A stretch of DNA of 64,000 nt from Actinomycetota bacterium (GCA_030679975.1 JAUXSL010000027.1:11447-75446), one strand, 5' to 3'. Positions 8,768 through 56,365 are shown, counted from the stretch's first letter. The notes: generated by a model from the letters alone, not told the origin. Program-made: numbers and translations.

Positions 8768-8768
8768 A

Positions 8769-11698: not shown

Positions 11699-11723
11699 CT
11701 ATGACCTGCTCTTAGACCGACGT

Positions 11724-12764: not shown

Positions 12765-12765
12765 T

Positions 12766-15146: not shown

Positions 15147-15161
15147 GAGGATATCCTGGTA

Positions 15162-16124
15162 TTAGCCAAGAAGAGTCGGTTCTTTTATGTGATCCGTGTT
15201 CTTCTCAAACCAAGTTAGAGTGCGTTCAATGCCTTCATTAAGTTCGATTGTCGGTTGCCACCCGAGCACCTGCTTGGCCAGCGTAGGATCGAGTACGTTG
15301 CGTGGGATATCGACAGGTCTCGAGGGCGTATATTGGATCGCAAAATCTTTACCGGCAATCCCGCGCAATATCTGAATAATCGCGTTGACGCTGGTTCCAC
15401 GGCCGGTGCCGATGTTAAACAGACGATGAGGCGACGTGTCAAGCATTATTTTAATAAAGGCGTCGGTTGCATCTTCGACAAATAAATAATCCCTGACAAC
15501 TTTGCCGTCACCCCATACTTCAATCGGCAGGCCTTCGATTATTCGGCGGCAAAAAACGCCGATTATGCCCTGATTTTGCGAACCCCATTGCCGAGCCCCG
15601 TATGGGTTGGAAAGGCGGAGAATGCGGTAGTCGAGACCATATAGCTTATTGAACATGCCAAGATATTTCTCGATCGCCAGTTTATGTATTCCATACGAGC
15701 TTATCGGCTCTGTCCGATGACTCTCGGTAATTTTGTTTTGAGTCGTCGGGCCGTAAACAGTTCCACCCGAAGATGGAAAAATAATCCTCGAAACACCACA
15801 TTTAACGGCGATCTCCAGTAGATTAAGGGTCGGGATAAGATTTGTGCTTATGTCGAAAGCCGGGTTTGCAGTTGAATTATTCACTGTTGTCGTCGAGATC
15901 AAATGGAAAATGATATCCATTCCCTTAACTGCTGATTCGAGATCTTCCCGGCTGGTGAAGTCGCCGCTAATCACCTTTACCTTAGGCAGGGCGGCGGCGA
16001 TGTTCTTAGTTGTAGCCGCGGGGTGCTCAAAGACGCTGACGTTTTCATAGCTTTCCGCGAGTTTTAAGGTCAGATTGGCGCCGAGGAATCCACCACCGCC
16101 AAGCAAGAGTATCTTTTTTTTCAT
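15162..16124 (-). CDS. NAD-dependent nucleotide-sugar epimerase/dehydratase (SDR)
   Basis: GGGGFLGANL Rossmann motif near the N-terminus, and a YxxxK catalytic region. Start refined to the ATG at 16124 (MKKKILLLGG). Confidence 0.8.
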   Translation of the reverse strand: MKKKILLLGGGGFLGANLTLKLAESYENVSVFEHPAATTKNIAAALPKVKVISGDFTSREDLESAVKGMDIIFHLISTTTVNNSTANPAFDISTNLIPTLNLLEIAVKCGVSRIIFPSSGGTVYGPTTQNKITESHRTEPISSYGIHKLAIEKYLGMFNKLYGLDYRILRLSNPYGARQWGSQNQGIIGVFCRRIIEGLPIEVWGDGKVVRDYLFVEDATDAFIKIMLDTSPHRLFNIGTGRGTSVNAIIQILRGIAGKDFAIQYTPSRPVDIPRNVLDPTLAKQVLGWQPTIELNEGIERTLTWFEKNTDHIKEPTLLG

Positions 16125-18124
16125 GAGTCTGATTGAGGACGCAAGAGAAGTTTTTTTGAAATCTGCCATACGTGTCTTAATAGCCGCTCTCCGGTATGCT
16201 TGCCGATTTGCCAATATAGCCTGATGTTCATTAGTCTCTTTGGCTCAAGACTCATGGCCAGGGCCCACCGGACAAAAGACGAAGGCGCCGGTCCCGCCCA
16301 CATCTTGTTGAGGTACTTATCGGACAATCGTCTTTTTATTAATTGTTTGGTCTCGGGGGGATAATCGGCATAGGCGCCTTGGAACAATTTTCTTCCGGCC
16401 TTAAGCAGAACCGATATTCGCTTGAGCGCGGCGGTAATTGAGAGGTGCTCCGGTAAGTCCATGCCAAGCCAAGCGGACCGCAAAAAAGCGATATCGTCAT
16501 CGTCAAGAGGCAGATTGTCTCCCACGGAAAACCGGCAATTACGGGCGCTAATATCAAAAGCTTGACGGCGCTGTTCTTCAAGATTGCTCAAGGTCATACC
16601 TTCGGGATGCTCCACTCTTGTTACCAGTGGTGTTTCAAGATTTACCAACTTGGTGTACCCGGCCATTCTCGACCAAAGATCATAATCTTGAGTATAATCA
16701 TACGTCTTGCTCTGGTCGTAGGCGCCGTGCGCTTTAAGCAAAGAGCTTCTAAACATAACGGAAGAGTGAATCATAGGATTGTCGAAAAGCAAGAACCAGC
16801 GAATGTCCTCGTCGCTAAATGCGTAACTGGCAATTCTTTTTATTTCTCCATCAAGAGTAGCCAGCCAGCTTGTCGATCCCACTAGTCCCACATCCGCATG
16901 GTTATCAAGGTACGCTTTCTGTTGCGCCAACCGTCCGCGGTCGGCCACGTCATCTTGGTCCAAGCGACATATGTAAGCTCCTCTGGCGATATCAAGTCCC
17001 CTATTTAAGGTGCGGGCCAAGCCCATGTTTTCGTGAGCGATAGCCACTATTCTATTATCCGAATAATTGGAGATGATCTCTTCAGAGGCGTCCGTTGATC
17101 CGTCGTTTAAGATAATCAACTCAAAATCGGTGAACGTTTGCATAAGCAGGCTCTCGATGGCTCGGGTCAGAAGGTCGGCGCCGTTATATACGGGGAGTAG
17201 GATGGAAATATCCGGTTTAGCCGGCCCATTGGCGCCACCGGAATCACCTTCTTTGGCTAATAGAGAAGCGCTGTAATCGTTCATAATCAAATTCTTGTTC
17301 TTCTCGTCCGCGCGTAGGTAGTAACAGCGGATTTTATCCAGCATCATCATCTTACCGACATGTCTGGCCGGTGCGCCGAGCTTGTCCTTCATGTGAGCCA
17401 TTGTTTTAAAATAATAGACCATCTCGGCTCGATAGCCAAATTGAGATCCTAACAACTTTTTCGACAGATTTTCCTCTCCTTGCCGGTTGAAAGCGAGCAC
17501 CTTATCCAAATAATAGAAGTTGGTTGAGGCTAAAATCCTTGACCACATATCAATATCCGCGGCGCAACCGACCGCCGGGTCGAAATATCCGACCTTGTCA
17601 ATGTCTCTTCGACGAAACAGAATCGCCGTCGGCCAGCCAATGCGTCTTTTTTGCAGGAGATAGTTCTTAATAAGATCCTCACCGGACTCTTTTCTATCTC
17701 CAACGAATAGGCGATAGGGATTTTCATCTTGGCTTGTTAGCGTGTTGTTGTCGGCGTCGATGGCCAGATAGTTTGAGCAAGCAATTCCGACATCGTCGTA
17801 TTCATCTAAGACCTTTACCTGTTCCGCAAGGCAGTTTTTATCAAGAATGTCGTCATCGCCCATTATCTTAATATACTCACCTTGGGCTAAATCCAGTCCT
17901 TTATTCCAATTAAGAACAAATCCGATGTTTTTTTCATTACGCACAAACCTAATGTTGCCTCGATCACGATATTCAACCGCTAAGCGGCTTGTTTCATCTT
18001 GAGAGCAATCATCCAGGACTATGATCTCAAAGTCCCCAAAGGTCTGGGTCAACGCTGAATCGATAGCCATCTTTAGATAATGCGATCTATTAAAGGTTGG
18101 AATCAGTATTGAGCACTTAGCCAT
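16121..18124 (-). CDS. Tandem two-domain family 2 glycosyltransferase
   Basis: Two GT2 domains: CSILIPTFNRSHYLKMAIDSAL...VLDDCSQD and ISILLPVYNGADLLTRAIESLL...ILNDGSTD. 667 aa. Confidence 0.75.
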   Translation of the reverse strand: MAKCSILIPTFNRSHYLKMAIDSALTQTFGDFEIIVLDDCSQDETSRLAVEYRDRGNIRFVRNEKNIGFVLNWNKGLDLAQGEYIKIMGDDDILDKNCLAEQVKVLDEYDDVGIACSNYLAIDADNNTLTSQDENPYRLFVGDRKESGEDLIKNYLLQKRRIGWPTAILFRRRDIDKVGYFDPAVGCAADIDMWSRILASTNFYYLDKVLAFNRQGEENLSKKLLGSQFGYRAEMVYYFKTMAHMKDKLGAPARHVGKMMMLDKIRCYYLRADEKNKNLIMNDYSASLLAKEGDSGGANGPAKPDISILLPVYNGADLLTRAIESLLMQTFTDFELIILNDGSTDASEEIISNYSDNRIVAIAHENMGLARTLNRGLDIARGAYICRLDQDDVADRGRLAQQKAYLDNHADVGLVGSTSWLATLDGEIKRIASYAFSDEDIRWFLLFDNPMIHSSVMFRSSLLKAHGAYDQSKTYDYTQDYDLWSRMAGYTKLVNLETPLVTRVEHPEGMTLSNLEEQRRQAFDISARNCRFSVGDNLPLDDDDIAFLRSAWLGMDLPEHLSITAALKRISVLLKAGRKLFQGAYADYPPETKQLIKRRLSDKYLNKMWAGPAPSSFVRWALAMSLEPKRLMNIRLYWQIGKHTGERLLRHVWQISKKLLLRPQSDS

Positions 18125-19298
18125 TTTGATAAATAGGCGGCCGTGCGCCGGCAGCTATCTCCCCTAAAATGTTTTCCATATTTATCACAGCATTTTGCCA
18201 GCTAAATTTGCGTACACAATCGATCCCGTTTCGGGCGATATAGTCCCGTTTTTTGGGATTATCGATCAGCGTCAAAATCGCTTTTGCCAGTTCTTCCGGT
18301 TGACGGGGCGTCACCACTAAGGCTGTCTCTCCGTCTATCGCGTAGTCCTCAGTTCCATATTCGGTAACGACGACGGGTGTGCCGCAAGCCATGGCTTCAA
18401 GGGGGGGCAAAGGGAAACTCTCATACCATGATGAAAGAAAGACAATATCGGCTTCATTGTATAACTCAGTTAACTTTTCTTTGTAAACCTGGCCCACATA
18501 TTCAAAGGGAATGCCGGCGTCTTCGGTGGTTACCTCAGGGGCGCCGCCATAGACTTTCCAGACGATATTCTTATCCCTTGTTTGGTCAAAGACTATTTTC
18601 ATCGCCGCAACCGCATCCTTAAACCCTTTCCAGGCCACCCCGTTGCCCGAGAAGGAGGCAATCGTGAGGCGGTTGTCGTCTTTGGTATTGGCCAGCGGGT
18701 GGAAATGATCTAAGTTGACACCGTTGCAGCAGAGATAAGATTCCGCCTCGAATTTTTCCCAAATTATGTTTTTCAGCCAAGAAGAGTTGGCGATTTTAAC
18801 CAAGGGCAAATGATATGTATAGTCGGCGTCAAGCGCTTCAATCAAGGAATCGAAAGGGCGTGCGTCGGCGAATAATCGTTCATAATGTTGCATAAAATAG
18901 CAGCCCTTACCTTTTTTCGAAAGGTAGACCGGTATCGCGGTAGGGAAATCAGTGGCAATGTTTATATCGCAATCGGGCATGAGCAGGAGCAGGTTTTGTT
19001 CGGTATTTGTCCTGCGTTGAATATACTGCGCGTAAGTCTTCAGCTCTTCCGGCATCTCGTGCAGTTGCGAATATTGCCGATCGTCGGTTTTGGCTTGATC
19101 CGATTCGCTCGGCATAATTAACGCGGCTTCCAAATCAAACCAGGTCGGTTTGGTGTCGCGATAGGGAATGGTGATAGTTACCGTATGGCCTTTTCTTCTT
19201 AGTCCGTTTGCGTATTCAAAAATTGCTCTAATCCCGCCGGTGGCCGGTATGCCGGAAATGCAAAAATTAACTTTCAAATACCGCCTCCTTCTCACCAT
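18117..19298 (-). CDS. Family 4 glycosyltransferase
   Basis: ESFPLPPLEAMACGTPVVVTEYG motif. Confidence 0.8.
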   Translation of the reverse strand: MVRRRRYLKVNFCISGIPATGGIRAIFEYANGLRRKGHTVTITIPYRDTKPTWFDLEAALIMPSESDQAKTDDRQYSQLHEMPEELKTYAQYIQRRTNTEQNLLLLMPDCDINIATDFPTAIPVYLSKKGKGCYFMQHYERLFADARPFDSLIEALDADYTYHLPLVKIANSSWLKNIIWEKFEAESYLCCNGVNLDHFHPLANTKDDNRLTIASFSGNGVAWKGFKDAVAAMKIVFDQTRDKNIVWKVYGGAPEVTTEDAGIPFEYVGQVYKEKLTELYNEADIVFLSSWYESFPLPPLEAMACGTPVVVTEYGTEDYAIDGETALVVTPRQPEELAKAILTLIDNPKKRDYIARNGIDCVRKFSWQNAVINMENILGEIAAGARPPIYQNG

Positions 19299-20661
19299 TT
19301 AGAATCGAGCCCACACACTCGGCGCCCATCATGACGGAGTGGTCCATATTACCGATCTCATAACGCCAAGCGCCAAATCGGCCGCGGGAGTAGACTGAGT
19401 TTGCGTGTAGAAAGTCTTGGATGTCGGTAAGCGCCCTATCTCTACCTATCGTTGGGACCGGGTAAGCTCTGTCTACCTCAATCAAATATGTGCCGGCAAT
19501 AAGTTTTTCATCGCCGGGTTCCATCATTCGATTGTCAATCAAGCCCTTAACAGTTTTTTCTATAATCGTTTCTTTTCCAACCGATACGTCTTTGGAAAAA
19601 CTAGTCTCGCACATAAAAGAGGAAAACCGCTCTCTATCGCCACTGGGAACATTGAAAGGCGAATAATTTGAAAACTGCGTGACGCGGTAGAATGGAGCCG
19701 AGCTGTCGGGAAAATAAATCCAACATTTGGAAGACTGCAGCTTTTTATCAAGTCCGACGCCGACTACGTAGACGGAATTTGAGATTAGATTACCAGCGGC
19801 TTGTCTAACCTCTTCCGGCGCGCTTGATTTGCCGATCAGGCTATCCAGCGGTGACGTATTAATAAGAATGTCGTAAGTGTCGGTTGCGCCGTCGGCAAAC
19901 CAAATCCTTTTTTGTTCGAGATCGATTTTGACCGCGTCCGCGTATATGCGAAGGTTATCTTCAATGTAGGGCAGGAACCTGCCAAACAGGCCGCCCGTTC
20001 CGTTTTTTAGAGGGAACTTAAATACATTGTTTGGTCCCCAGCCGGTATCGTCTTTAGCGAGGATAACATTGTTTAGCGCTTTCTCGAAATCAACCACGCT
20101 AACCCTCTCGGCTATCCAGCTCTTGTCCATTTTATCAAGGGGCGTCCGCCATAATTTTTTATTGTACGGGAACATGAAATGCTTGGCGATTCCTTCACCA
20201 AACGTGCTTAATATCCATTCGTGAAAATTGCGGGCGGGCTCATGAGTATTTCGGGCGGCTTCGTGCAAGCCGACAAGACATTCCAATACGGCCTCTTTTG
20301 GGAGGTGGCGAATATTGTTTTGCAGGGGGTAGGGGACCCACCGCTGCAGCATCCTTATCCAACTCTCTCTTTGGTGCTCCAGGTAATCATCGCCGAGTAA
20401 TTTATCGACAACATCATCAAAATACTTGTAGTGGGAGAACATCACATGGCCGCCGATATCCCAAGTGAATCCCTGGTCGTCCTTGAAGGAGGCGGCCAGA
20501 CCGCCTATATAGTCGTTCTTCTCATAAATGAGCCAATTTCGGTATCCCAATTCGCGCAAGCGATAGGCGGCGCCGAGCCCGGTTGGTCCGGCGCCTAGGA
20601 TCACGATCCTTTTTTCCAAGGGCTCATCTTTCTTCCAACCGCTTTTCACTTGAACGACCAT
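19267..20661 (-). CDS. glf: UDP-galactopyranose mutase-like FAD-dependent enzyme
   Basis: N-terminal ILGAGPTGLGAAYRL dinucleotide-binding fold. The C-terminal RFGAWRYEIGNMDHSV resembles the conserved UGM RLATYRYYNMDQ region. Start refined to the ATG at 20661. Confidence 0.55.
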   Translation of the reverse strand: MVVQVKSGWKKDEPLEKRIVILGAGPTGLGAAYRLRELGYRNWLIYEKNDYIGGLAASFKDDQGFTWDIGGHVMFSHYKYFDDVVDKLLGDDYLEHQRESWIRMLQRWVPYPLQNNIRHLPKEAVLECLVGLHEAARNTHEPARNFHEWILSTFGEGIAKHFMFPYNKKLWRTPLDKMDKSWIAERVSVVDFEKALNNVILAKDDTGWGPNNVFKFPLKNGTGGLFGRFLPYIEDNLRIYADAVKIDLEQKRIWFADGATDTYDILINTSPLDSLIGKSSAPEEVRQAAGNLISNSVYVVGVGLDKKLQSSKCWIYFPDSSAPFYRVTQFSNYSPFNVPSGDRERFSSFMCETSFSKDVSVGKETIIEKTVKGLIDNRMMEPGDEKLIAGTYLIEVDRAYPVPTIGRDRALTDIQDFLHANSVYSRGRFGAWRYEIGNMDHSVMMGAECVGSILNGEKEAVFES

Positions 20662-21959
20662 TGAGTCTGTGGAAAGAAAACCCCGCATCCTTCATCCACA
20701 TTCGGCGCGGGAGGGTTAACGACTATAAAAGTTTCCATCTGCCGCCAGCAATAAGGTAGCTGGCCGGCGAGTTCTCTGTCCGAGACTGCCAGGCCGATAA
20801 AATATTCACCGCTGTTGAATTGATTTAGTACTGAAAAACAAAACTTACCTCTGCCCTTGCTTAATCTGGGCGGGATTACTTTACTAAAGTAGGTTCTATC
20901 CAGTCCGCATACCAGCCCATCGGTTCTGACGAAAGTCAAAGAGTACATTGGGTTTTCAACATCGAGCGAAGAATCGAACGTTACTTCGCCGTGAATCTCA
21001 TCTCCAACCGAGAATTCCCGGCTGGCACGGCCGTCCTTATCGCGTAACTTCACCGATAGGATAGTTATTTCACCCGTGCCCCTGTTTTCAAAGGTGTTTT
21101 TTGTGCGGTCTTGCCGGTTTTCGGTCGACGCTAAGCTTTTCTTAAGCATCAAGTTTTCATAGACGGAGAGGGCTTCGGTCACCTCGTCGGTGTAAGCCAT
21201 TGTCTTGCCTTTGTTTAAAACCAAGACACTGTCGCAAAACCCTTCAATGCTGTACATATTGTGACTGACGAGAATGAACGAGACGCCGTTCTTTCTCATA
21301 CGTTTCATTTTGTTAAAAGACTTGCGTTGAAAACCTATATCGCCGACGGTTAATATCTCGTCAACCAATAATATCTCCGGTTCTGAATGGATGGCTATCG
21401 CGAATCCCAGGCGTACGAACATCCCGGAGCTATAATTTTTGACCGGTGAATCAAGGAAGTCGCCGATATCGGCAAAGTCGACAATGTCTTTGAATTTGCC
21501 GTCGATTTCCTTTTTGCTCATTCCCAAGATGGCGCCGTTGATGTAGATATTTTCTCGTCCGGTCAGCATGGGATGGAAGCCGGCGCCGACCTCGATAAGC
21601 GCTCCTACCCGGCCTTTTATTTCAATCCGGCCTCTGTCGGGCATATATATGCCGTTGATCATCTTGAGCAGGGTGCTCTTACCTGAACCATTGGCGCCGA
21701 TAATGCCAAGCGCTTCGCCTTGTCTTAGGTTAAACGACACATCATCGACAGCCAAGAATTCACCGTCGCGCAGAATATTTGCCCGTGAGCCCAGGCCGAC
21801 CATGTTCCGGACAACTTCCGTTGTGCCGTAGAGCATTACGTGTTTTAGGTTGCGGGAGAATTTTTTTGCCACACCGTCAACGCGAATGATCTCAGTTGAA
21901 ATGCTTTTTTGGTCGCTCGCGAAGTCCTTTGCGGCGATCGGGGGTGCTTGAGCTTTCAT
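20646..21959 (-). CDS. wzt: Wzt-type ABC exporter ATPase with an extended C-terminal carbohydrate-binding-like domain
   Basis: Walker A (GANGSGKST), an ABC signature (SGMFVRLGFA) and Walker B (LLVDE). About 190 aa of beta-rich C-terminal extension is typical of Wzt_C. Confidence 0.85.
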   Translation of the reverse strand: MKAQAPPIAAKDFASDQKSISTEIIRVDGVAKKFSRNLKHVMLYGTTEVVRNMVGLGSRANILRDGEFLAVDDVSFNLRQGEALGIIGANGSGKSTLLKMINGIYMPDRGRIEIKGRVGALIEVGAGFHPMLTGRENIYINGAILGMSKKEIDGKFKDIVDFADIGDFLDSPVKNYSSGMFVRLGFAIAIHSEPEILLVDEILTVGDIGFQRKSFNKMKRMRKNGVSFILVSHNMYSIEGFCDSVLVLNKGKTMAYTDEVTEALSVYENLMLKKSLASTENRQDRTKNTFENRGTGEITILSVKLRDKDGRASREFSVGDEIHGEVTFDSSLDVENPMYSLTFVRTDGLVCGLDRTYFSKVIPPRLSKGRGKFCFSVLNQFNSGEYFIGLAVSDRELAGQLPYCWRQMETFIVVNPPAPNVDEGCGVFFPQTQWSFK

Positions 21960-22804
21960 ATCCTCTCAGCGATCTTGGTTTCAGCCATATGGAAGACGCG
22001 CCAAAAAAACAGAAACGAGGCAACGGCCAGCAAGGTCGACCAAAGCCATCCGGTTGTGTTTGAGAAAGTCCCGTATAATACAAGATCACGCGGGGCCATT
22101 ATTAGTTGCGCAAAAGGATTCCACGTGGTGATTTTTGCGATGATCCCTGTTTTTAAAGGCGGATAAAGGATGGGGATTAAAAACATCATAAAATTTGTGG
22201 CCAACGACACAACGTATGAGACGTCTCTTATCAGAACGGTAGCCAGGGCCAGAAAAAGACCTAGTCCGAGCGCCATGAGAAAAAGCGGCACCAAGACCAG
22301 CGGCAAGAAGATTATTTTCCATGAGGGAACTACACCAAATAAGATAAAGACAGCCAATGTTAGGCTTAGACGAACCAAAAACTCAACTATAGATTGTAGG
22401 GCAGCGGCTATAACCAGACTTACTTTGGGGAAATTAATCTTTCCAATCATAGCGCCGGCTGAGGCAACGCTTCCCGAGCAAGCCGAAACGCAAGATGCGA
22501 ACAAATTCCAAATAGTTAATCCGACAACAGCATAAACAACATAAGGTACGCCTGTGTCTCCTATTTTGAGAATACCGGCACTGCTAAGATAGACAAAAAC
22601 ACCGACGGTCGCCAGCGGATTGATGATTACCCAAATCAGTCCCAGGAAGGATTGTTTATAACGCGACGTAAACTCGCGCAGGAAGAGCCGCCAAATAAGT
22701 TCGCGACTCGATCCAAGATCGCCGATCATTTCCTGAAACTGGACGACGATGCTTATCTTTAGCGCTCGATCGGATTCGTATACAGTGGTCTTTTCTGTCG
22801 CCAT
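21956..22804 (-). CDS. wzm: Wzm-type ABC-2 exporter permease
   Basis: Six predicted transmembrane helices of the ABC-2 family. Start refined to the ATG at 22804 (MATEKTTVY), 1 nt downstream of the fcl stop. Confidence 0.8.
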   Translation of the reverse strand: MATEKTTVYESDRALKISIVVQFQEMIGDLGSSRELIWRLFLREFTSRYKQSFLGLIWVIINPLATVGVFVYLSSAGILKIGDTGVPYVVYAVVGLTIWNLFASCVSACSGSVASAGAMIGKINFPKVSLVIAAALQSIVEFLVRLSLTLAVFILFGVVPSWKIIFLPLVLVPLFLMALGLGLFLALATVLIRDVSYVVSLATNFMMFLIPILYPPLKTGIIAKITTWNPFAQLIMAPRDLVLYGTFSNTTGWLWSTLLAVASFLFFWRVFHMAETKIAERI

Positions 22805-22805
22805 C

Positions 22806-23789
22806 TTAATTTTCGACCTTGTCCGGGGGTAACGGTTTCGCTTGGTCGGAATACCATTGATACGTGCTTTTAAGTCCTTCACGCAAGCCGATAGCGGCCT
22901 GCCAGCCAAGGCTATTAAGCTTGGCGACATCGAGCAGCTTGCGGGGCATGCCGTCTGGTTTTGAGGCATCAAAGCTGATATCGCCGGTAAAAACGGCAAC
23001 CTCTTTTATCAACAGGGCCAGCTCTTTTATAGATATGTCCTGGCCAACACCGATATTAATGAGTTTGCCGCTATTGTAAGACCGCATGAGAAAAAGGCAA
23101 GCGTCGGCCAGATCATCAACATGCAGGAACTCGCGCCTGGGGTTGCCCGATCCCCAGACCTCGACAGACTTAGCGCCGGCGGCTTTAGCTTCGTGAAACT
23201 TGCGGATTAAAGCCGGTAAGACATGGGAGTTCTTGAGATCAAAGTTATCGTTTGGTCCATAGAGGTTTGTGGGCATGACCGAAATGAAGTTCGTCCCGTA
23301 CTGGTAATTGTAGCTTTGACACATCTTGATGCCGGCGATTTTTGCAAGCGCATAAGCGTCATTTGTCGGCTCCAAGGGCCCGGTTAAGAGATACTCTTCC
23401 TTGATCGGCTGGGGCGCTTTTTTCGGATAGATACAGGAACTGCCCAAAAAGAGCAATTTTTTGACGCCGGAAATGTAAGCATTATGGATTACGCTGGTCT
23501 CAATCAGCAAGTTGTCTCGAATAAATTCTGCCGGGCAGTGGCTGTTTGCCCAGATGCCGCCCACTTTAGCCGCAGCCATGAAAACATATTCCGGACGCTC
23601 CGCGGCAAAAAAAGCTTTAACGTCCGCGTTTTCGCGCAGATCAAGCTCATTGTGTGAGCGCGTGATCAAGTTGTGGAAACCTTCCGCCTCAAGTTTGCGG
23701 ACGAGAGCGGAGCCGGCTAGCCCTGAATGTCCGGCCACATATATCTTCGAGTCTCCGCTGAAGTGATCTTTCGGGCTCATAATGCTCAA
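22806..23789 (-). CDS. fcl: GDP-L-fucose synthase (GDP-4-keto-6-deoxymannose 3,5-epimerase/4-reductase)
   Basis: [26 protein letters not shown] and [15 protein letters not shown] motifs. Confidence 0.85.
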
Positions 23790-24868
23790 GACTCAAAGAC
23801 CAGTGGTTGATTCGGCAAAGCGGAGGCTTGCTTCTGAGCTTCCTGAAGATCGGCTTTGACCATCATTTTGACCAGCTCGGGAAAAGCGATCTTAGGGCTC
23901 CAGCCAAGCCGTTTCTTGGCTTTGGCGGCATCCCCTTGAAGAATTTCGACTTCTGTCGGTCTAAAATAGCGCGGGTCTATCTCGATTATCGCTTCTCCGG
24001 TCCGGCTATTCAGGCCTTTTTGGCTGACCCCGCTGCCTTGCCAGACTAGATTGATGCCAACTTCCCTAAAAGCCTCTTCGCAGAATTCCTTGACCGAATG
24101 GGTCTTGCCGGTAGCTATGATGTAATCGTCCGGGTTGTCTTGCTGTAGCATCAACCACATTGCTTCAACATAATCCGGGGCGTAACCCCAGTCCCTCCTG
24201 GCGTTTAGGTTGCCAAGAAACAATTTTTTCTGCAGGCCGAGTGTTATACGAGCGGCGCTCATTGTGATCTTGCGGGTGACAAAGGTTTCGCCTCTGAGGG
24301 GGGACTCATGGTTAAACAGTATCCCATTATTGGCGTGGATGCCGTAGGCCTCCCGGTAGTTGACCGTTATCCAGTAGCTGTACAGCTTGGCCACGCCATA
24401 AGGGCTTCTGGGGTAAAAAGGTGTTTTTTCAGTTTGCGGAATCTCTTCTGTTTTACCATAGAGTTCGCTGGTAGCCGCATTATAGAAACGGGTCTTGGCG
24501 CACATCCCCAATATGCGCAAAGCCTCCAGCAAGCGCAGAGTGCCCAGGCCGTCCGCATTGGCGGTATATTCAGGGGACTCAAAAGAAACTTGAACGTGGC
24601 TCTGGGCCGCCAGATGGTATATCTCATCCGGCCGAGTTTCTTGAATGAGCCGGATTATGTTAGTGGAGTCCGTCACGTCGCCATAATGTAACAAAAAGTT
24701 TGGGTGCCCATCATGGGGGTCTTTATATAAATGGTCGATTCGCTGAGTGTTAAACGAAGAAGATCGTCTTTTAATGCCGTGGACCAGGTAATCTTTATTT
24801 AACAAGAATTCAGCCAGATAAGCCCCGTCTTGTCCCGTTGCGCCGGTTATTAAAGCTGTTCTACGCAT
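23786..24868 (-). CDS. gmd: GDP-mannose 4,6-dehydratase
   Basis: [21 protein letters not shown] near the N-terminus, and SELYG and [11 protein letters not shown] motifs. Start refined to the ATG at 24868. Confidence 0.9.
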
Positions 24869-24963
24869 GTGCCTCTTTCCCCTAAATAGAGCGTGTACCA
24901 CTGTTCATCATACGAACAACGATAATCGTCAGATATGCCAGCGTCAAGGTTGTCGGGGCATCT

Positions 24964-25686
24964 TCATTTTTTGCTCACAAACGCCATACCCGGCAGCCCT
25001 AATAGTTGCCATTGTACGTGCGACACAGTCGCTCTCTGGGTTTCCAGCAGCTCCTGGAGTGATTGCCAAGGACCGATATTGTAAGCTGACGGTGTTTGAA
25101 AGAGAACGTCGTGCGCCAAGAGGCCAGAGCCGGAAGGCAGCCGAGCCCACAGAGAGAGATCGCGCCTGGTGGATTGTCGCGAATGGTCACCGTCAATGTA
25201 GAGCAAAATTGGGCTTGAAATTCCTTCTAGTAGTCGGCCGGCGGTTTCAAATCCATCTCCGACAAATTGCTCCACCTTGGTTTTAGCAAGATATCGGCCC
25301 CTGGCCGCTCCGGGAAATTCAGGATGATTTGCATCCATTGAATCCACTGTGCATACTCGACAATCCCGCAGACCCAAGGCTTCTTTGACTTCCCAAAAGA
25401 GGCGAGCGGATTTACCATGATGAGTGCCCCATTCAACAATCAAGCAAGGCTGAACGAATGCTACAGCGGCAGCCATCAGCATCTGCTCGTTTAAAGGGTA
25501 GGGATGGGCGCCGATATTCGGGATTACTCTTTCCAGTAATAGTTCGCTAAGTTTCCAGCAATCGACCTCAAAAATTGAGCCGTTCTTAACGATATCGTTT
25601 TCTAAGTCGTCTTTAACGACATCGTTCCTATTATCGTATTTTTTTGCTTTAACGAAATTGAATGGATTATGGAAAAAGCATACCAC
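24964..25686 (-). CDS. Class I SAM-dependent methyltransferase (TylF/MycF/CmcI-like); candidate glycan chain-terminating O-methyltransferase
   Basis: LLYIDGDHS and surrounding fold resemble Methyltransf_24-type O-methyltransferases. It is adjacent to wzm/wzt. Confidence 0.5.
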   Translation of the reverse strand: MVCFFHNPFNFVKAKKYDNRNDVVKDDLENDIVKNGSIFEVDCWKLSELLLERVIPNIGAHPYPLNEQMLMAAAVAFVQPCLIVEWGTHHGKSARLFWEVKEALGLRDCRVCTVDSMDANHPEFPGAARGRYLAKTKVEQFVGDGFETAGRLLEGISSPILLYIDGDHSRQSTRRDLSLWARLPSGSGLLAHDVLFQTPSAYNIGPWQSLQELLETQRATVSHVQWQLLGLPGMAFVSKK

Positions 25687-25798: not shown

Positions 25799-27202
25799 TC
25801 AAGTGGATGCCGCGACCTGCGTAGTTAAGCTTGAGCCGGTCTGTGATCGACTGGCGGCCAACCCCAGCAGGAACCAGAGTGCTTTTTGTGGCATGGTGCT
25901 AAGAAAGAAGCCCGCGACCAAAAACCCGATAATGCCGATCATCAGCATCGAACAATCGACGGCCAGGTCTTGTTTTAACAGGCCGGCGTAAGCCCACCGC
26001 GCCCGACTCAATTCGAGGAGGCTTAAGCCGAGCAGCCCAACAAACGCCGCCAAGCCAATGATGCCGGTCTCGACGGCTGTTTCGATGTAAGTGTTATGCG
26101 CTACCATCGCCTTGACATTGCCCAGGTTAATCCACGGCATGTAGGAAGCGTATTTATAAAAGGCAAATTTGTAGTTTTGGATGCCCACTCCGAGCACTGG
26201 ATGATCGAGCCATATGCGCCAAGCGGTCTGCCAAATATCCAACCGACCCGACCCTCCGCTAACCAGGATCGAGCTTAGGGAAAACCGTGGATCCAAGAGT
26301 GCCAGGAAGACGCCGCTGAGGGTAACTACAAAAAACAAGATCCTCAGGCGCTTCTTGAGTAACGGTTCGACGAAGCCGTTCCGAGACAGAAAAAAGAACA
26401 TGACGACAACAGCGACCATGGCTCCGCGAGACAAGTTCGCCAATGTACCGATAAGCAGCAAGAAGAAGACTGTCCAGTACAACGATCTCTTATTTCCCTG
26501 GTTTCCGTTGACGAAAGCGAAAGCCAAGGGGATAAGGATCAGGATATTTAAAGCCGAGTAATTAGGGTCCATAGAGACACCGATGGCTCGGTTGGCGCCG
26601 CCGAGGATAAATTGGAAGACACCGATGAGCGCTGCCGGTATACCGGCTAAAGTTAAAATAAGCAGAGTGTTCTTAAACGTGGCTTCGTCATGAGTAAGAT
26701 CGACGACCATAAAGTAGAGGACAACCAGTTGTATCATAGTTATCAGTCTGTCCACGCCGACGGCCGGGTATTGCGCTTGGGTGATGGATAGAGCTGAAAC
26801 GGCGAGAAATAGCATTAAGACCAGGCCGGCCTTGTTTCGGGGGTTTATGAAAACCTGCCGGGTCCGCGCGAGTCTAATAAACCAGGAAAAAAAAGCGACG
26901 ACGCCGATAAGCTTGAATGAGGAAAAATCGCTGTTAAGCGAAGCGAGACTCTCAAACGGCAACCAGGCGGCGATCATGTAGAGCCCCAGCTTAGGGTTGG
27001 GAAGCACCAAAAAGGCCAATATCGGTAAGACTGAAACACCAAGACCGATTCTCGGATTAAAGGCTACTACGGCGCCGAGGCCTAGCCCAAAGACGGCCAC
27101 CACCAGCGTGATCAGCCAATTTCGATCGAGGAGCCGATTAAGTTGGCGAGAGGGTAGGGCCGCTTCCATGTTAAAGTGCGGCCCCTTGGCCGACAGTTTC
27201 AT
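25799..27202 (-). CDS. Wzy_C / O-antigen ligase family polytopic membrane protein
   Basis: About 12 transmembrane helices. A large periplasmic loop with HNTYIETAVETG matches the Wzy_C ligase/polymerase motif region. Confidence 0.75.
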   Translation of the reverse strand: MKLSAKGPHFNMEAALPSRQLNRLLDRNWLITLVVAVFGLGLGAVVAFNPRIGLGVSVLPILAFLVLPNPKLGLYMIAAWLPFESLASLNSDFSSFKLIGVVAFFSWFIRLARTRQVFINPRNKAGLVLMLFLAVSALSITQAQYPAVGVDRLITMIQLVVLYFMVVDLTHDEATFKNTLLILTLAGIPAALIGVFQFILGGANRAIGVSMDPNYSALNILILIPLAFAFVNGNQGNKRSLYWTVFFLLLIGTLANLSRGAMVAVVVMFFFLSRNGFVEPLLKKRLRILFFVVTLSGVFLALLDPRFSLSSILVSGGSGRLDIWQTAWRIWLDHPVLGVGIQNYKFAFYKYASYMPWINLGNVKAMVAHNTYIETAVETGIIGLAAFVGLLGLSLLELSRARWAYAGLLKQDLAVDCSMLMIGIIGFLVAGFFLSTMPQKALWFLLGLAASRSQTGSSLTTQVAAST

Positions 27203-28028
27203 AAGCGATAGCCAGGCCGCATCCGGCGATGAGCGCGGCTAAGGCGGCGAAGATCAAGTTCGCGGTGATGTTGGGCGATGCCGGCGTGGTTGGTCTAACC
27301 GCGGCGGTCAGGATCTTGGTGCGCGGCCCTTCTTCGAGATTGTTCATCAATGTCTGCTCTTGGGCCAATAGTGACTGCTCGCGATCGACCAAGAGCAGTT
27401 TTTGATCGATTAGCCGCGGCCGCTGCTCCTCTAATGCCGCCAGCCTTTGGTTTAGAGCAAAGACGATTATCGCTTTTTCCGAGGCCGGAATATCCTTGTT
27501 TTCAGCTTGCGCCAGCTCTTTTTTGGCCGCCCGTATCTCACCATCTATATGGGTGGTGTCCAGCAACGGTTGTTTGATCTTGGATTTGCCGGAGTTTTGC
27601 TTGTACAGGATCTCGTCAAGCCATTTAAGCGTTGCGCGCGTTATACGCAGTTGAGCGGCTGTTTTCTCGGCCTCGGGATCGACTGTCTTGGCATAGGCAA
27701 TAAATCTTTGTGCCGCTAGGTTGGCTATTTTATGTACAGAAGTTTTGTCGGGCGCGCTGACGGTTATGGCTATGATGTTGGACCCGGTGGCGTTTTCCGC
27801 GTGAACCATTTTCTTCAGTTCCAAAACGCTATATTTGAACTTGCCCTTATTAATGACTTCAGTCAGCAGGGTATCGCTAACGATTACCTCATTTAAGGCT
27901 GTCGGTGTATTAAAGACGCCGAGGGCGACCGGGCTGAGCATGACAGTCGAGGATGCCTCGTAAGTAATCTGCCGGATATTGATAAGTCCGGTGGTCATCA
28001 TAGTCACGACCATAAAAAAAGCAATCAA
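27171..28028 (-). CDS. Wzz-like polysaccharide co-polymerase (chain-length determinant)
   Basis: N-terminal transmembrane helix, a long coiled-coil periplasmic region and a C-terminal transmembrane helix (LIFAALAALIAGCGLAIAY). Confidence 0.6.
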   Translation of the reverse strand: MIAFFMVVTMMTTGLINIRQITYEASSTVMLSPVALGVFNTPTALNEVIVSDTLLTEVINKGKFKYSVLELKKMVHAENATGSNIIAITVSAPDKTSVHKIANLAAQRFIAYAKTVDPEAEKTAAQLRITRATLKWLDEILYKQNSGKSKIKQPLLDTTHIDGEIRAAKKELAQAENKDIPASEKAIIVFALNQRLAALEEQRPRLIDQKLLLVDREQSLLAQEQTLMNNLEEGPRTKILTAAVRPTTPASPNITANLIFAALAALIAGCGLAIAYETVGQGAAL

Positions 28029-28186
28029 CCACTTTCTCCGACCGATGGAGTCGAGATACTCAGTTAATTCGAAGGGTTTTTCAGCCGGATCGATCCGGTC
28101 AAGCCGAATCTCTGTTTTACCGCTTATAGCTATCTCTCCCAGCCAAATAGTTGTAATCGGCAGTATAATATCATAATTGCCGCCTG

Positions 28187-29320
28187 CTATTTTACCGCTA
28201 TCGGCCGCTCTATGGCGACGGCCAGCGTCCTACATACATAGGTGACTTGCTTCTCACTCAATTGCGGGTACATCGGTAGGGATAAAACTTCTGTCGTTGC
28301 TAGTTCGCTTTGTGGATATGCTCCGGCGACCAGCCCTAAGTCAGCGTAGGCGGGTTGCAGATGGATGGGGAGCGGGTAATGAACGGCACTGTCGATGCCG
28401 CGATTCGCCAGTCTCTCCCTGATCGGGTCTCGCTCTTTGACGCGAATTGTATACTGGTGCCAGACATGTGTTCGGTTAGCGCCGGTTGCCGGTCGTTTGA
28501 CGCCCGGCAGTTCCGACAACAATGTATCATATAGGCCCGCACGCGAGCGCCGGGCCGCCGTCCAATTTTCGAGGCGCTTAAGTTTGGTTCTGACTACGGC
28601 GGCCTGCAGTTCGTCCAAGCGGCTGTTATATCCGATTTCTTCATGGTAATACTTCCGGCTGCTGCCGTGAGCTCTGAGCCGGCGGATTCGGCCGGCCGTT
28701 TCTTCGTCGTCGGTGACGATCATCCCACCGTCGCCGGCGCCGCCCAGATTTTTGCTGGGGAAGAAGCTTAGGCAGCCAATATTGCCGATCGATCCGACCC
28801 GTTTGTCCTTGTATTCGGCGCCGATAGCTTGGGCGCAATCTTCGACTACAGCGAGCTTGTATTTTCCGGCCAAGGTCATGATCTCAGCCATATCGGCCGG
28901 TTGTCCGTATAAGTGGACGGGCAAGATCGCGCGGGTGCGCGGGGTGATTTTAGCTTCGATCTGCCCGACATCCAAATTGTATGTCGCCGGATCGATATCG
29001 ACGAAGACAGGCACGGCGCCGCAATAAGATATAGCTTCGACGGTAGCGATAAAAGTAAACGGCGTAGTGATGACTTCGTCGCCGGGTCCAACACCTAAAG
29101 CACGCAAAGCCAGGTGCAGGGCGTCTGTTCCCGATGCGACCCCGACCGCGAAGCGGGCGCCGCAAAAGGCGGCGATCTCATCTTCCAGAGCGGCTACATT
29201 GGGGCCAAGGATAAACCTGCCGTCGGCCAGGGTTTGGTTAACGGCTGCCGTCAGTTCGTCTTTTATCTCTAAATACTGGGCCTTAAGATCAACGACGGGT
29301 ATCATCAATCGCTTAACCAC
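28187..29320 (-). CDS. DegT/DnrJ/EryC1-family PLP-dependent sugar aminotransferase (WbpE-like)
   Basis: N-terminal VDLKAQYLEIKDEL. A conserved lysine region (SFFPSKNLGGAGDGG). 377 aa. Confidence 0.85.
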   Translation of the reverse strand: MVKRLMIPVVDLKAQYLEIKDELTAAVNQTLADGRFILGPNVAALEDEIAAFCGARFAVGVASGTDALHLALRALGVGPGDEVITTPFTFIATVEAISYCGAVPVFVDIDPATYNLDVGQIEAKITPRTRAILPVHLYGQPADMAEIMTLAGKYKLAVVEDCAQAIGAEYKDKRVGSIGNIGCLSFFPSKNLGGAGDGGMIVTDDEETAGRIRRLRAHGSSRKYYHEEIGYNSRLDELQAAVVRTKLKRLENWTAARRSRAGLYDTLLSELPGVKRPATGANRTHVWHQYTIRVKERDPIRERLANRGIDSAVHYPLPIHLQPAYADLGLVAGAYPQSELATTEVLSLPMYPQLSEKQVTYVCRTLAVAIERPIAVK

Positions 29321-29797
29321 TCGTCCTGCGGCACATCGCGGATTATGCGGGCCGGGATACCCATGACCAGTTTGGCGTCCGGGACATCCTTAGTCACTAC
29401 CGAACCGGCAGCGACAAAAGCTTCGCGGCCGATAGTGATGCCCGGCAAAAGGAGCGAGGCGCCGCCGATGCGGGCGCCGCAAAAGGCGGCGATCTCATCT
29501 TCAAGAGCGGCTACATTGGGGCCAAGGATAAACCTTCCGTCGGCCAGAACTTGGTTAACGACTGCCGTCAGTTCGTCTTTTATTTCTAAATACTGGGCCT
29601 TAAGATCAACAACAGGTAGCATTAGCTGCTTAACCACTCGTCCTCCGGCACATCGCGGATTATACGGGCCGGGATACCCATGACCAGTTTGCCGTCGGGA
29701 ACATCCTTAGTTACTACCGAGCCGGCGGCGACAAAAGCTTCGCGACCGATAGTGATGCCCGGCAAAAGGAGCGAGGCGCCGCCGATGCGGGCGCCGC
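29153..29797. repeat. Tandem duplication of two 317-bp units, about 95% identical, bounded by 11-bp GCGGGCGCCGC microhomologies
   Basis: The GCGGGCGCCGC motif occurs at 29153-29163, 29470-29480 and 29787-29797. Each unit is the degT 5' end, the intergenic spacer, and the acetyltransferase 3' end. Confidence 0.85.
29305..29637 (-). pseudogene. Chimeric in-frame ORF created by the duplication: DegT N-terminus fused to acetyltransferase C-terminus
   Basis: Residues 1-56 are near-identical to the DegT N-terminus (MVKQLMLPVVDLKAQYLEIKDELTA...FCGAR). Residues 57-110 are near-identical to the acetyltransferase C-terminus (IGGASLLLPGITIGREAFVAAGSVV...). The junction is GAR, encoded by the microhomology. 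Confidence 0.5.
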
Positions 29798-31404: not shown

Positions 31405-31407
31405 ATT

Positions 31408-34962: not shown

Positions 34963-35039
34963 GCGCATAGAACCCTAGCTGCTTCAAAACAAGCCTTTTC
35001 TCCTGTATAATTACCGCACTTTAAATTTGAGGTGCGCAA

Positions 35040-35783: not shown

Positions 35784-35786
35784 GGC

Positions 35787-54496: not shown

Positions 54497-54525
54497 TTGA
54501 CAACTCTACATCTCGGCAATAATAT
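54497..54525 (+). promoter_or_regulatory. Near-consensus sigma70-type promoter for the RelE/ParE module
   Basis: TTGACA (54497-54502), a 17-nt spacer, and TAATAT (54520-54525), about 25 nt upstream of the antitoxin start region. Confidence 0.4.
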
Positions 54526-54548
54526 TGGACATATAGACATACAGGCGT

Positions 54549-54803: not shown

Positions 54804-54804
54804 G

Positions 54805-55485: not shown

Positions 55486-55546
55486 ATAATTGTCTAAAAC
55501 GAGATAAAATATAGAAGAAAGATAAAAAACACTGTTAGCTTTAAAA

Positions 55547-56358: not shown

Positions 56359-56365
56359 TGATAAA

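What the first reader, a model, noticed from the sequence alone, without database searches (positions are those of the whole stretch)
20646..25686. ABC-transporter-dependent export with an extended Wzt C-terminal domain and a nearby O-methyltransferase (chain-terminator logic), co-existing with Wzz and Wzy_C genes
Wzt has about 190 aa beyond the nucleotide-binding domain. In E. coli O9a such an extension is a carbohydrate-binding module that recognises a methyl or phosphomethyl cap. The methyltransferase that installs that cap would be WbdD-like, and a class I methyltransferase sits 3 kb away. The same locus also encodes a Wzz-like co-polymerase and a Wzy_C polytopic protein. These are hallmarks of the Wzy-dependent route. 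This mixture is atypical. It suggests either two glycans or a hybrid chain-length control mechanism.
Basis: partly seen in the sequence, partly recalled or inferred. Interest (0 to 1): 0.5.

Follow-up and report, generated by a model that had tools for sequence, protein, structure and literature searches.

The report
Cap-reading sugar exporter locus, mosaic
An uncultured actinobacterium carries an ordinary kind of surface-sugar export system, whose pump has a domain that checks the end of the sugar chain before export, and this system is inserted into a second, separable sugar-assembly gene set.

Summary
Window 20646-25686 (- strand) encodes Wzt (ABC ATPase plus Pfam Wzt_C), Wzm, GDP-fucose synthase, GDP-mannose dehydratase and a 240-aa class I methyltransferase. 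A Wzy_C protein and a divergent Wzz/PCP protein lie just upstream.

An AlphaFold model of the Wzt C-terminus (pLDDT 87) matches all three solved Wzt carbohydrate-binding domains. The best match is the Aquifex domain bound to 3-O-methyl-mannose.

The methyltransferase is not WbdD-like. It is a stand-alone CmcI/Methyltransf_24 enzyme with no kinase domain and no long helix. Its model is closest to sugar O-methyltransferases (MeT1, SpnH).

Methyl capping as the export licence is plausible but unproven:
- For: relatives of the methyltransferase sit beside Wzm/Wzt in 39 of 80 genomes, and almost all of those Wzt carry C-terminal extensions. One Wzt relative is fused to a methyltransferase.
- Against: the closest Wzt locus has no such methyltransferase, and the family also occurs in a Wzx locus.

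The "atypical mixture" reading is overstated. Wzy_C is the ligase/oligosaccharyltransferase family that ABC pathways need. Synteny and GC3 show two separable modules, so "two glycans or a two-part glycan" is favoured over hybrid length control. This is an ordinary new member of a known kind.

The parts
20646..21959 (-). wzt: ABC ATPase with a C-terminal carbohydrate-binding domain. The real start is probably about 20 codons downstream of the first ATG.
   Evidence: ABC_tran 4.5e-23 and Wzt_C 3.4e-17. The best solved relative is full-length Aquifex aeolicus Wzt, 8dku/7k2t, E 1e-63, aligned through residue 405. Thousands of homologues of about 410-430 aa exist.
20649..21083 (-). Carbohydrate-binding domain of Wzt (residues about 293-437), a beta-sandwich.
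   Evidence: AlphaFold model with pLDDT 87, 9 strands and no helix. Foldseek matches 8dky (Aquifex domain with 3-O-Me-Man) at E 8e-10, 5hno (O12) at 4e-9 and 2r5o (O9a) at 4e-8. In the alignment, W405 and A391 align with the Aquifex cap-pocket residues Trp362 and Ala348 named in PMC9445017.
21956..22801 (-). wzm: ABC-2 permease.
   Evidence: ABC2_membrane 1.7e-13. 54% identical to the Wzm of L004.
22806..23789 (-). fcl: GDP-L-fucose synthase.
   Evidence: NF047922 at 495 bits against a cut-off of 500.
23786..24901 (-). gmd: GDP-mannose 4,6-dehydratase.
   Evidence: TIGR01472 at 588 bits.
24964..25686 (-). Stand-alone, probably metal-dependent sugar O-methyltransferase (CmcI/Methyltransf_24 type); the candidate chain terminator.
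25799..27202 (-). Wzy_C-family polytopic protein, a ligase/oligosaccharyltransferase or a polymerase; part of the lineage-conserved module.
   Evidence: PF04932 3.3e-20. TIGR03097 'putative O-glycosylation ligase' 4e-23. Carries H368-N369-x9-G379-x2-G382. 61% identical orthologue in L089, directly followed there by the GT4_375 orthologue.
27171..28124 (-). Divergent Wzz/PCP-type protein. The conserved N-terminus lies upstream of the listed TTG start, so a non-canonical (ATA) start is likely.
28187..32760 (-). WbpA/B/D/E-like genes for a UDP-2,3-diacetamido-2,3-dideoxy-hexuronic acid (sugar dehydrogenase, Gfo/Idh/MocA oxidoreductase, acetyltransferase, DegT aminotransferase). The pathway assignment is inferred from the gene set.
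   Evidence: Syntenic with L089 at 58-80% identity.
9502..20688 (-). Remainder of the ABC module: FAD oxidoreductase (mutase-like), GT1, a two-domain GT2 (candidate polymerising transferase), an epimerase, GT4, a PF13524 transferase, GT2, GT4 and GT2.
   Evidence: The FADox-GT1-2xGT2-epimerase segment is syntenic with L004/L005 at 54-67% identity.
731..7248 (-). Distal part of the lineage-conserved module: GT4, an AsnB-type amidotransferase, GT4_375, UDP-GlcNAc 2-epimerase, and a GT2 with a hydrophobic C-terminal tail (read from its sequence).
   Evidence: 59 and the sequence. The GT4_375 orthologue directly follows Wzy_C in L089. Orthologues of GT4_418 and GT4_375 follow PCP-Wzy_C in L002.
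32929..34962 (+). Second Wzy_C protein with C-terminal TPR repeats, a candidate O-oligosaccharyltransferase or ligase.
   Evidence: Wzy_C 4.6e-21 plus TPR hits. 26% identical to the 467-aa paralogue. The same short-plus-long pair occurs in L002 and L091.

Best explanation
The interval is the precursor-and-export core of an ABC-transporter-dependent surface-glycan pathway in an uncultured Actinomycetota bacterium.

Shown:
- gmd and fcl are present and would supply GDP-L-fucose.
- Wzm and Wzt form the exporter pair.
- Wzt carries a C-terminal beta-sandwich domain of the same fold as the cap-binding domains of E. coli O9a, Raoultella O12 and Aquifex.

Inferred:
- A polyprenol-linked, fucose-containing chain is built in the cytoplasm by the transferases downstream. 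These include a conserved two-domain GT2.
- The non-reducing end of the chain is modified, most probably O-methylated by the adjacent CmcI-type methyltransferase.
- The Wzt domain binds this end and licenses export.
- No coiled-coil ruler was found on the methyltransferase. Chain length would then depend on the balance between elongation and capping.

The Wzz-like and Wzy_C genes are not part of this module. They belong to a second module conserved in the lineage, together with the genes for a diacetamido-uronic acid. The ABC module lies inserted between the parts of that second module. These proteins would act outside the membrane. The most likely roles are ligation of a finished glycan to its acceptor, or assembly of a second glycan part. 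The precedents are Gram-positive S-layer glycan loci and rhamnose wall-polysaccharide loci.
For: - Domains.
- Fold of the Wzt C-terminus. The sequence alignment to full-length Aquifex Wzt runs through the binding domain, and W405 aligns with the methyl-stacking Trp362 (PMC9445017).
- Methyltransferase: conserved metal/SAM-type motifs. It is structurally closest to sugar O-methyltransferases.
- Neighbourhood of the methyltransferase family: of 80 genome loci, 39 have Wzt within 10 kb, and 37 of those 39 Wzt have at least 110 aa beyond the ATPase domain.
- The three closest methyltransferase orthologues (62-68% identity; L002, L003, L009) all sit downstream of fcl-wzm-wzt with an extended Wzt. 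gmd is also seen in L002 and L009. L003 is cut inside fcl at its contig end.
- P0102, a Wzt 45% identical to this one, is a natural fusion of ATPase, Wzt_C and a FkbM-type methyltransferase.
- Two modules: L004/L005 carry gmd-fcl-wzm-wzt-FADox-GT1-2xGT2-epimerase (followed by an unrelated GT4) without PCP or Wzy_C. L089 carries WbpABDE-PCP-Wzy_C-GT4_375 with nothing in between. GC3 falls from 0.64 in Wzy_C to 0.48 in the methyltransferase.
- Published parallels: the Pseudomonas syringae gmd-rmd-wzm-wzt-methyltransferase-GT operon (PMC7820976), and Geobacillus S-layer glycan loci with wzm/wzt, a methyl cap and a Wzy_C transferase (PMC2943079).
Against: - The closest Wzt relative (66% identical in the binding domain; L004/L005) has no homologue of this methyltransferase anywhere in its 17-kb contig. 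A B12-binding radical SAM gene follows wzt there instead.
- The closest methyltransferase orthologues sit beside Wzt proteins whose C-terminal extensions match the window-family Wzt_C profile not at all (L002, L003) or only marginally (L009, E 0.003). The methyltransferase and the binding domain therefore do not co-vary.
- The methyltransferase family also occurs in a Wzx-type locus without an ABC exporter (L008). In 19 of 44 loci with full flanks no Wzt lies within 10 kb.
- Its most constant neighbour is a PF13524 transferase, not Wzt.
- Published terminators carry a coiled-coil ruler (PMC11231755). This protein has no helix longer than 16 residues.
- The methyltransferase lies exactly at the module junction, so its membership of the ABC module is not certain.
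- No initiating phosphoglycosyl transferase, Wzx or LCP ligase is in the window.
- The background frequency of extended Wzt proteins was not measured.
Confidence: 0.55

Rival explanations
1. The methyltransferase only decorates the glycan. It methylates the residue added by its usual partner, the PF13524 transferase. The end that the Wzt domain reads is made by another enzyme, such as a terminating glycosyltransferase or the B12-binding radical SAM enzyme.
For: - The methyltransferase-PF13524 pairing is the most conserved adjacency.
- The family occurs in a Wzx locus.
- The closest Wzt locus lacks it and has a radical SAM gene directly after wzt.
- A partial radical SAM gene also lies at window 3-758.
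Against: - In this window the methyltransferase is 11 kb from the PF13524 gene and only 62 nt upstream of gmd-fcl-wzm-wzt.
- The window's radical SAM fragment is only 30% identical to the L004 gene.
- The Wzt-methyltransferase fusion P0102 ties this Wzt clade to methylation.
Confidence: 0.25
2. A single hybrid pathway. The ABC transporter exports finished, capped chains or blocks. The PCP/Wzy_C pair then acts on that same polymer outside the membrane, by length-selective ligation or block polymerisation, without a Wzx flippase.
For: - No Wzx is found in the 64-kb window, nor in the parts seen of L002, L089 and L090.
- L002 has wzm-wzt, the methyltransferase, PCP, Wzy_C and a phosphoglycosyl transferase in one co-directional array.
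Against: - The two modules occur separately.
- The window and all related contigs are incomplete, so a Wzx gene may lie elsewhere. The cluster runs off the window start.
- I know of no precedent for Wzz control of ABC-exported chains (own knowledge).
Confidence: 0.12
3. A classical lipopolysaccharide O-antigen locus of a bacterium with an outer membrane. Wzy_C would be the WaaL ligase, and the Wzz-like gene a leftover from another pathway.
For: - The Wzy_C protein matches the ligase family.
- It carries the H-N-x9-G-x2-G motif that I recall as typical of WaaL. This rests on memory.
Against: - NCBI labels the source contig Actinomycetota. It also carries UPF0182, which I know as a mainly actinobacterial family (own knowledge).
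- No lipid A, core or Lpt genes are in the window.
- A distant Wzy_C homologue locus carries a sortase.
Confidence: 0.05

Closest known systems
Aquifex aeolicus WzmWzt with a 3-O-methyl mannose/rhamnose cap (PDB 7k2t, 8dku, 8dky; PMC9445017)
   Same: It is the best sequence match among solved structures (E 1e-63, aligned through the binding domain) and the best fold match for the C-terminal domain. Both sit beside GDP-mannose-derived 6-deoxyhexose chemistry. The Trp that stacks on the methyl group aligns with W405.
   Different: The binding domains are only about 20% identical. Of the four pocket residues, two differ (Leu300->Thr, Thr346->Gly). The host is an Actinomycetota genome rather than a Gram-negative making LPS.
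E. coli O8/O9a and Klebsiella O3/O5 WbdD-Wzt system
   Same: The logic is the same: a cytoplasmic terminator modifies the non-reducing end and the Wzt C-terminal domain reads it. The domain fold matches 2r5o.
   Different: WbdD is a large protein with a methyltransferase (plus a kinase in O9a) and a coiled-coil ruler (PMC3482155, PMC11231755). Here the enzyme is a 240-aa single-domain protein of a different Pfam family, and WbdD is absent from the top structural matches.
Pseudomonas syringae / P. aeruginosa common polysaccharide antigen operon (gmd-rmd-wzm-wzt-methyltransferase-GT; PMC7820976, PMC3560663)
   Same: The gene logic is almost identical: a GDP-mannose-derived deoxyhexose, wzm, a wzt with a Wzt_C domain, a separate SAM methyltransferase and a multi-domain transferase.
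   Different: The sugar route here uses fcl (L-fucose) rather than rmd (D-rhamnose). The methyltransferase family differs. The setting is not LPS.
Geobacillus stearothermophilus S-layer glycan (slg) locus (PMC2943079)
   Same: It is a single-membrane bacterium with wzm/wzt, a 2-O-methyl cap, a Wzy_C-domain O-oligosaccharyltransferase and a TPR partner. The cluster GC is lower than the genome's. Gene starts and stops overlap.
   Different: There the methyltransferase is a domain of the trifunctional WsaE. That locus has no Wzz-like gene. No S-layer protein gene is identified here.
Lactococcus lactis cwps / Enterococcus faecalis epa loci (PMC9574508)
   Same: One locus combines an ABC-exported backbone with a second chain that needs Wzy-like and Wzz-like (two transmembrane segments, large outer loop) proteins.
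   Different: Those loci encode a Wzx-type flippase and use LCP ligases. Neither is seen in this window. The sugars differ as well.

Membership tests
Cap-dependent ABC glycan exporters (Wzm plus Wzt with a C-terminal binding domain) | ABC-2 permease plus a Wzt-type ATPase encoded side by side | tested here: met
Cap-dependent ABC glycan exporters (Wzm plus Wzt with a C-terminal binding domain) | A C-terminal beta-sandwich domain homologous to solved Wzt binding domains | tested here: met
   PF14524 at 63 bits against a cut-off of 30.4. Model pLDDT 87. Foldseek matches 8dky, 5hno and 2r5o at E 8e-10 to 4e-8.
Cap-dependent ABC glycan exporters (Wzm plus Wzt with a C-terminal binding domain) | A dedicated terminating enzyme that creates the cap, in published cases carrying a coiled-coil ruler | tested here: inconclusive
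   A candidate methyltransferase lies 3 kb away. It has no long helix. It does not co-vary with the binding domain. Coiled coils in the other transferases were not examined.
Cap-dependent ABC glycan exporters (Wzm plus Wzt with a C-terminal binding domain) | A chemically distinct non-reducing end that the domain binds and that export requires | not testable with these tools
   This needs glycan chemistry and binding assays.
WbdD-type terminators | A methyltransferase domain joined to a kinase domain (O9a type) and a C-terminal coiled coil | tested here: not met
CmcI / Methyltransf_24 O-methyltransferases (PF04989, PF13578) | A profile match above the curated cut-off and the conserved metal/SAM motifs | tested here: met
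Wzx/Wzy-dependent pathway | A Wzx (MOP-family) flippase in the locus | tested here: not met
   No Polysacc_synt or MurJ-type hit in any ORF tested across the 64-kb window. The window does not cover the whole 77-kb contig.
Wzx/Wzy-dependent pathway | A polysaccharide co-polymerase (Wzz/PCP): two transmembrane segments, a coiled-coil loop and a proline-rich motif | tested here: met
   (motifs). (14 of 21 relatives hit PF02706). (three weak chain-length-determinant models). The window protein itself does not reach a Pfam threshold.
Wzx/Wzy-dependent pathway | A Wzy polymerase as distinct from a ligase | tested here: inconclusive
   PF04932 covers ligases, O-oligosaccharyltransferases and some polymerases (PMC2943079). 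Adjacency to the PCP in four loci favours a polymerase. The H-N-x9-G-x2-G motif (motif recalled from memory) and the TIGR03097 hit favour a ligase.
WaaL / O-oligosaccharyltransferase family (PF04932) | A Wzy_C domain in a polytopic membrane protein | tested here: met
   Both 25799-27202 (3.3e-20) and 32929-34962 (4.6e-21, plus TPR) match.

The most novel reading that the evidence does not exclude
In this single-membrane actinobacterium the rare Wzz-like protein and Wzy_C act directly on the capped chains exported by Wzm/Wzt. That would be a Wzx-less hybrid of the two classical routes. The second Wzy_C-TPR enzyme then transfers the product onto the 1535-aa extracellular multihaem cytochrome encoded immediately downstream.
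Probability: 0.08. Interest if true: 0.65.

Novelty: new member of a known kind. Interest (0 to 1): 0.3.

Why it matters
The result extends cap-reading ABC glycan export to an uncultured Actinomycetota lineage. So far this mechanism is characterised biochemically in a handful of Gram-negative O antigens and inferred for a few S-layer glycans.

It also points to small stand-alone CmcI-type methyltransferases as a widespread candidate class of capping or decorating enzymes next to extended Wzt proteins. Relatives were found in 80 genomes of many phyla.

For annotation, the practical lesson is that a Wzy_C domain beside wzm/wzt should be read as a ligase or oligosaccharyltransferase candidate, not as evidence for the Wzy route. 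Mixed loci can also be separated into modules by synteny.

None of this changes current understanding of glycan export.

Tried and rejected
- **PDB sequence searches.** Searches with the PCP, the Wzy_C protein and the 404-aa membrane protein gave no meaningful hits.
- **Extended PCP.** Re-scanning the PCP with its N-terminus extended still gave no Pfam hit. Its classification rests on relatives and motifs.
- **Promoters and terminators.** The scan of 19-33 kb found no more sites than shuffled sequence and none in the intergenic gaps, so there is no evidence for separate transcription units.
- **NoeI idea.** I considered that the methyltransferase family might include the Nod-factor fucose 2-O-methyltransferase, because relatives occur in Bradyrhizobium. 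Those loci are polysaccharide clusters and mostly lack a true gmd, and the paper I checked does not mention NoeI. I dropped the idea.
- **Rhizobium etli.** A literature search for the methyl-fucose cap of R. etli found nothing usable.
- **gmd association.** The apparent link between the methyltransferase family and gmd weakened once true gmd was required (at least 300 bits). About 11 of 80 genome loci then qualify.
- **Radical SAM.** The partial gene at the window start is only 30% identical to the one beside wzt in L004, so orthology is not claimed.
- **Background rate.** I did not measure how often Wzt proteins in general carry C-terminal extensions. Any sample I could draw would be biased towards this Wzt clade.
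- **RNA scans.** Rfam and tRNA scans of the window found nothing.


Full report
**What is there.** Window 9502-32760 is one long array of co-directional genes on the - strand with short gaps or overlapping ends.

The finding's interval holds five genes:
- wzt (20646-21959)
- wzm (21956-22801)
- fcl (22806-23789)
- gmd (23786-24901)
- a 240-aa methyltransferase (24964-25686)

Wzt matches ABC_tran at E 4.5e-23. It matches the Pfam Wzt C-terminal domain at E 3.4e-17, which is 63 bits against a cut-off of 30.4, over residues 293-424. Wzm matches ABC2_membrane. gmd and fcl match their NCBIfam equivalog models at 588 bits and at 495 bits (cut-off 500). The methyltransferase passes the cut-offs of Methyltransf_24 and RMNT_CmcI.

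Directly upstream lie a 467-aa Wzy_C protein (25799-27202) and a 285-aa ORF (27171-28028) with weak matches to chain-length-determinant models.

**Source.** The methyltransferase, EPSP synthase and DAHP synthase are identical to proteins of one 77,369-bp NCBI contig labelled "MAG: Actinomycetota bacterium" (MDP1808319.1 and neighbours). The right half of the window holds housekeeping genes, including UPF0182. The glycan region has lower GC than these genes, with GC3 of 0.48-0.65 against 0.67-0.74.

**The Wzt extension.** I modelled residues 270-437 with 57 homologues. Mean pLDDT is 87, with nine strands and no helix. Foldseek against the PDB returns only Wzt binding domains at the top:
- Aquifex aeolicus domain bound to 3-O-methyl-D-mannose (8dky), E 8e-10
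- Raoultella O12 Kdo-binding domain (5hno), E 4e-9
- E. coli O9a domain (2r5o), E 4e-8

The next unrelated folds score about E 5e-5. By sequence, full-length Aquifex Wzt is the best solved relative (E 1e-63), and the alignment runs through the binding domain.

I mapped the published cap-pocket residues (Leu300, Thr346, Ala348, Trp362; PMC9445017) through that alignment. The aligned window residues are T342, G389, A391 and W405. The methyl-stacking Trp and one further residue are therefore kept. At about 20% identity this mapping is only indicative. W405 varies among close homologues, as expected for a specificity position.

**The methyltransferase.** Thirty-eight homologues share the invariant residues D165, G166, H168, H192 and D193, and D167 is conserved in at least 90% of them. 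The model has pLDDT 88, a Rossmann-type core, and no helix longer than 16 residues.

The closest structures are cation-dependent class I O-methyltransferases:

WbdD does not appear in the lists. A sugar O-methyltransferase is thus a reasonable call, but membership of the WbdD family fails: there is no kinase domain, no coiled coil, and the Pfam family is different. Published terminators carry a coiled-coil ruler (PMC11231755), and this protein has none.

**Does the methyltransferase go with the exporter?** I fetched 80 genome loci encoding relatives of the methyltransferase (33-62% identity, many phyla). I searched them with the window's proteins.
- Wzt lies within 10 kb in 39 of 80 loci, and in 25 of the 44 loci with full flanks.
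- In 37 of those 39, Wzt has at least 110 residues beyond the ATPase domain.
- 19 of 42 Wzt ORFs (including metagenome loci) hit a profile built from the window's Wzt_C family at E<1e-3.
- The three closest orthologues (L002, L003, L009) all lie downstream of fcl-wzm-wzt with an extended Wzt. gmd is also seen in L002 and L009, while L003 is cut inside fcl at its contig end.
- A Wzt 45% identical to the window's is naturally fused to a FkbM-type methyltransferase, in the order ATPase, Wzt_C, methyltransferase (P0102).

These results support methyl-cap logic for this kind of exporter. Several results count against a specific pairing:
- The closest Wzt (70% identical in the ATPase domain and 66% in the binding domain; L004/L005) has no relative of this methyltransferase in its 17-kb contig. 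A B12-binding radical SAM gene follows wzt there.
- The Wzt extensions beside the closest methyltransferase orthologues match the window-family Wzt_C profile not at all (L002, L003) or only marginally (L009, E 0.003).
- The family also occurs in a small Wzx-type locus with no ABC exporter (L008).
- Its most constant neighbour is a PF13524 transferase, whose window homologue lies 11 kb away at 12766-13920.
- I could not measure how common extended Wzt proteins are in general.

I therefore rate "this methyltransferase makes the cap that this domain reads" at roughly even odds. "Export depends on a recognised chain end" is more likely than that.

**The Wzz-like gene.** A search of 1.8 billion representative proteins found only 24 relatives at E<=0.001. 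Their alignment shows the family hallmarks:
- an N-terminal motif ending in R-K-W
- a first transmembrane segment
- a loop of variable length, whose window copy matches a designed coiled coil
- a proline-rich A-x2-P-x2-P-x2-P motif
- a second transmembrane segment

Fourteen of 21 relatives hit Pfam Wzz and ten hit GNVR. In the window the conserved N-terminus (ELTEYLDSIGRRKW) is encoded in frame upstream of the listed TTG start. No ATG, GTG or TTG precedes it. An ATA codon about 8 nt after a GGAG core within GGGAGAG is the likely start, which would give about 317 aa. This is an inference. The protein is thus a genuine but divergent member of the co-polymerase superfamily.

**The Wzy_C genes.** PF04932 is the O-antigen ligase family. 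It includes WaaL, PglL/PilO and the S-layer O-oligosaccharyltransferases WsaB and WsfB (PMC2943079). Its presence beside wzm/wzt is therefore expected, not atypical.

The window has two members: the 467-aa protein, and a 677-aa protein with TPR repeats on the other strand (32929-34962). They are 26% identical. The same short-plus-long pair occurs in L002 and L091. The short one follows the Wzz-like gene in the window, L002, L089 and L090.

That adjacency favours a polymerase/co-polymerase pair. The H368-N369-x9-G379-x2-G382 motif, which I recall as typical of WaaL, and the TIGR03097 "O-glycosylation ligase" hit favour a ligase. I cannot decide between the two.

No Wzx flippase, phosphoglycosyl transferase or LCP ligase was found in any ORF tested across the window. 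However, the cluster runs off the window start into a partial radical SAM gene.

**Two modules.** L089 comes from a close relative (55-80% protein identity). It has WbpA-B-D-E-like genes, then PCP, then Wzy_C, then the orthologue of window GT4_375 (2919-4046), with nothing in between.

L004/L005 have MarR, gmd, fcl, wzm, wzt, radical SAM, FAD oxidoreductase, GT1, the two-domain GT2 and an epimerase (orthologues at 54-76% identity), followed by an unrelated GT4. They have no PCP or Wzy_C.

The window thus holds an ABC module, running from about 25.7 kb down to about 7.3-9.5 kb. It lies between the two halves of a lineage-conserved module:
- 25.8-32.8 kb: the diacetamido-uronic acid genes, PCP and Wzy_C
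- 0.7-7.2 kb: GT4, an AsnB-type amidotransferase, GT4, a 2-epimerase and GT2

GC3 drops from 0.64 in Wzy_C to 0.48 in the methyltransferase exactly at this junction. In L002 both gene sets occur in one co-directional array, so the combination recurs.

This favours two glycans, or a two-part glycan, over a hybrid length-control mechanism. Known parallels exist in Lactococcus and Enterococcus wall-polysaccharide loci (PMC9574508).

**Verdict.** This is a real, well-formed, cap-dependent-type ABC glycan export module in an Actinomycetota genome. A plausible but unproven methyl terminator sits at its edge. The module is embedded in a second glycan-assembly module. It is a new member of a known kind. 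The parts that remain open are the role of the Wzz-like/Wzy_C pair without a visible Wzx, and the acceptor of the glycan.

Noticed in passing
window 32929-40394 (+): A Wzy_C-TPR protein (677 aa), a TPR protein (247 aa) and a 1535-aa protein with Big_5 Ig-like domains and many CXXCH haem motifs are co-directional, with gaps of 78 and 4 nt. A related locus (L090) also has a 1525-aa Big_5 multihaem cytochrome next to its glycan cluster. The cytochrome could be the glycosylation target.
   Followed up: partly
window 29149-29765: A 300-nt tandem duplication (29149-29448 and 29466-29765, 92% identical, spacing 317) spans the junction between the end of the acetyltransferase gene and the start of the DegT gene. 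It creates a chimeric 110-aa ORF (29305-29637) made of the DegT N-terminus and the acetyltransferase C-terminus. The relative L089 has no such gap. It is either a real duplication or an assembly artefact.
   Followed up: partly
window 28029-28124 (-): The conserved N-terminus of the Wzz-like protein is encoded upstream of the first ATG/GTG/TTG. An ATA codon about 8 nt after a GGAG core within GGGAGAG is the likely start.
   Followed up: partly
window 7553-9530 (+): Two ORFs lie on the opposite strand inside the cluster: a 404-aa polytopic membrane protein and a 266-aa protein. Neither has a Pfam, NCBIfam or PDB match, and neither has a homologue in the first 88 loci fetched. The first could be an unrecognised GT-C-type transferase or a flippase.
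   Followed up: partly
window 3-758 (-): A partial B12-binding radical SAM gene runs off the window start, so the glycan cluster continues beyond the window. A distant relative (30% identity) sits directly after wzt in L004.
   Followed up: partly
protein P0102 (homologue of the window's Wzt): A 650-aa natural fusion of a Wzt ATPase, the Wzt_C domain and a FkbM-type methyltransferase. The exporter and a methyltransferase are physically joined.
   Followed up: partly
window 19267-20688 (-): A FAD-dependent amine-oxidase-like protein overlaps the end of wzt. It matches PRK07208-type models and, weakly, UDP-galactopyranose mutase. It is conserved at 67% identity in the same position module in L004/L005. 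It may be a sugar mutase that makes a furanose.
   Followed up: no
window 54500-57000: A low-GC stretch (0.46-0.51) holds two pairs of small adjacent ORFs (54549-55074 and 56366-56919). From their sequences they look like toxin-antitoxin pairs, and they lie between housekeeping genes.
   Followed up: no
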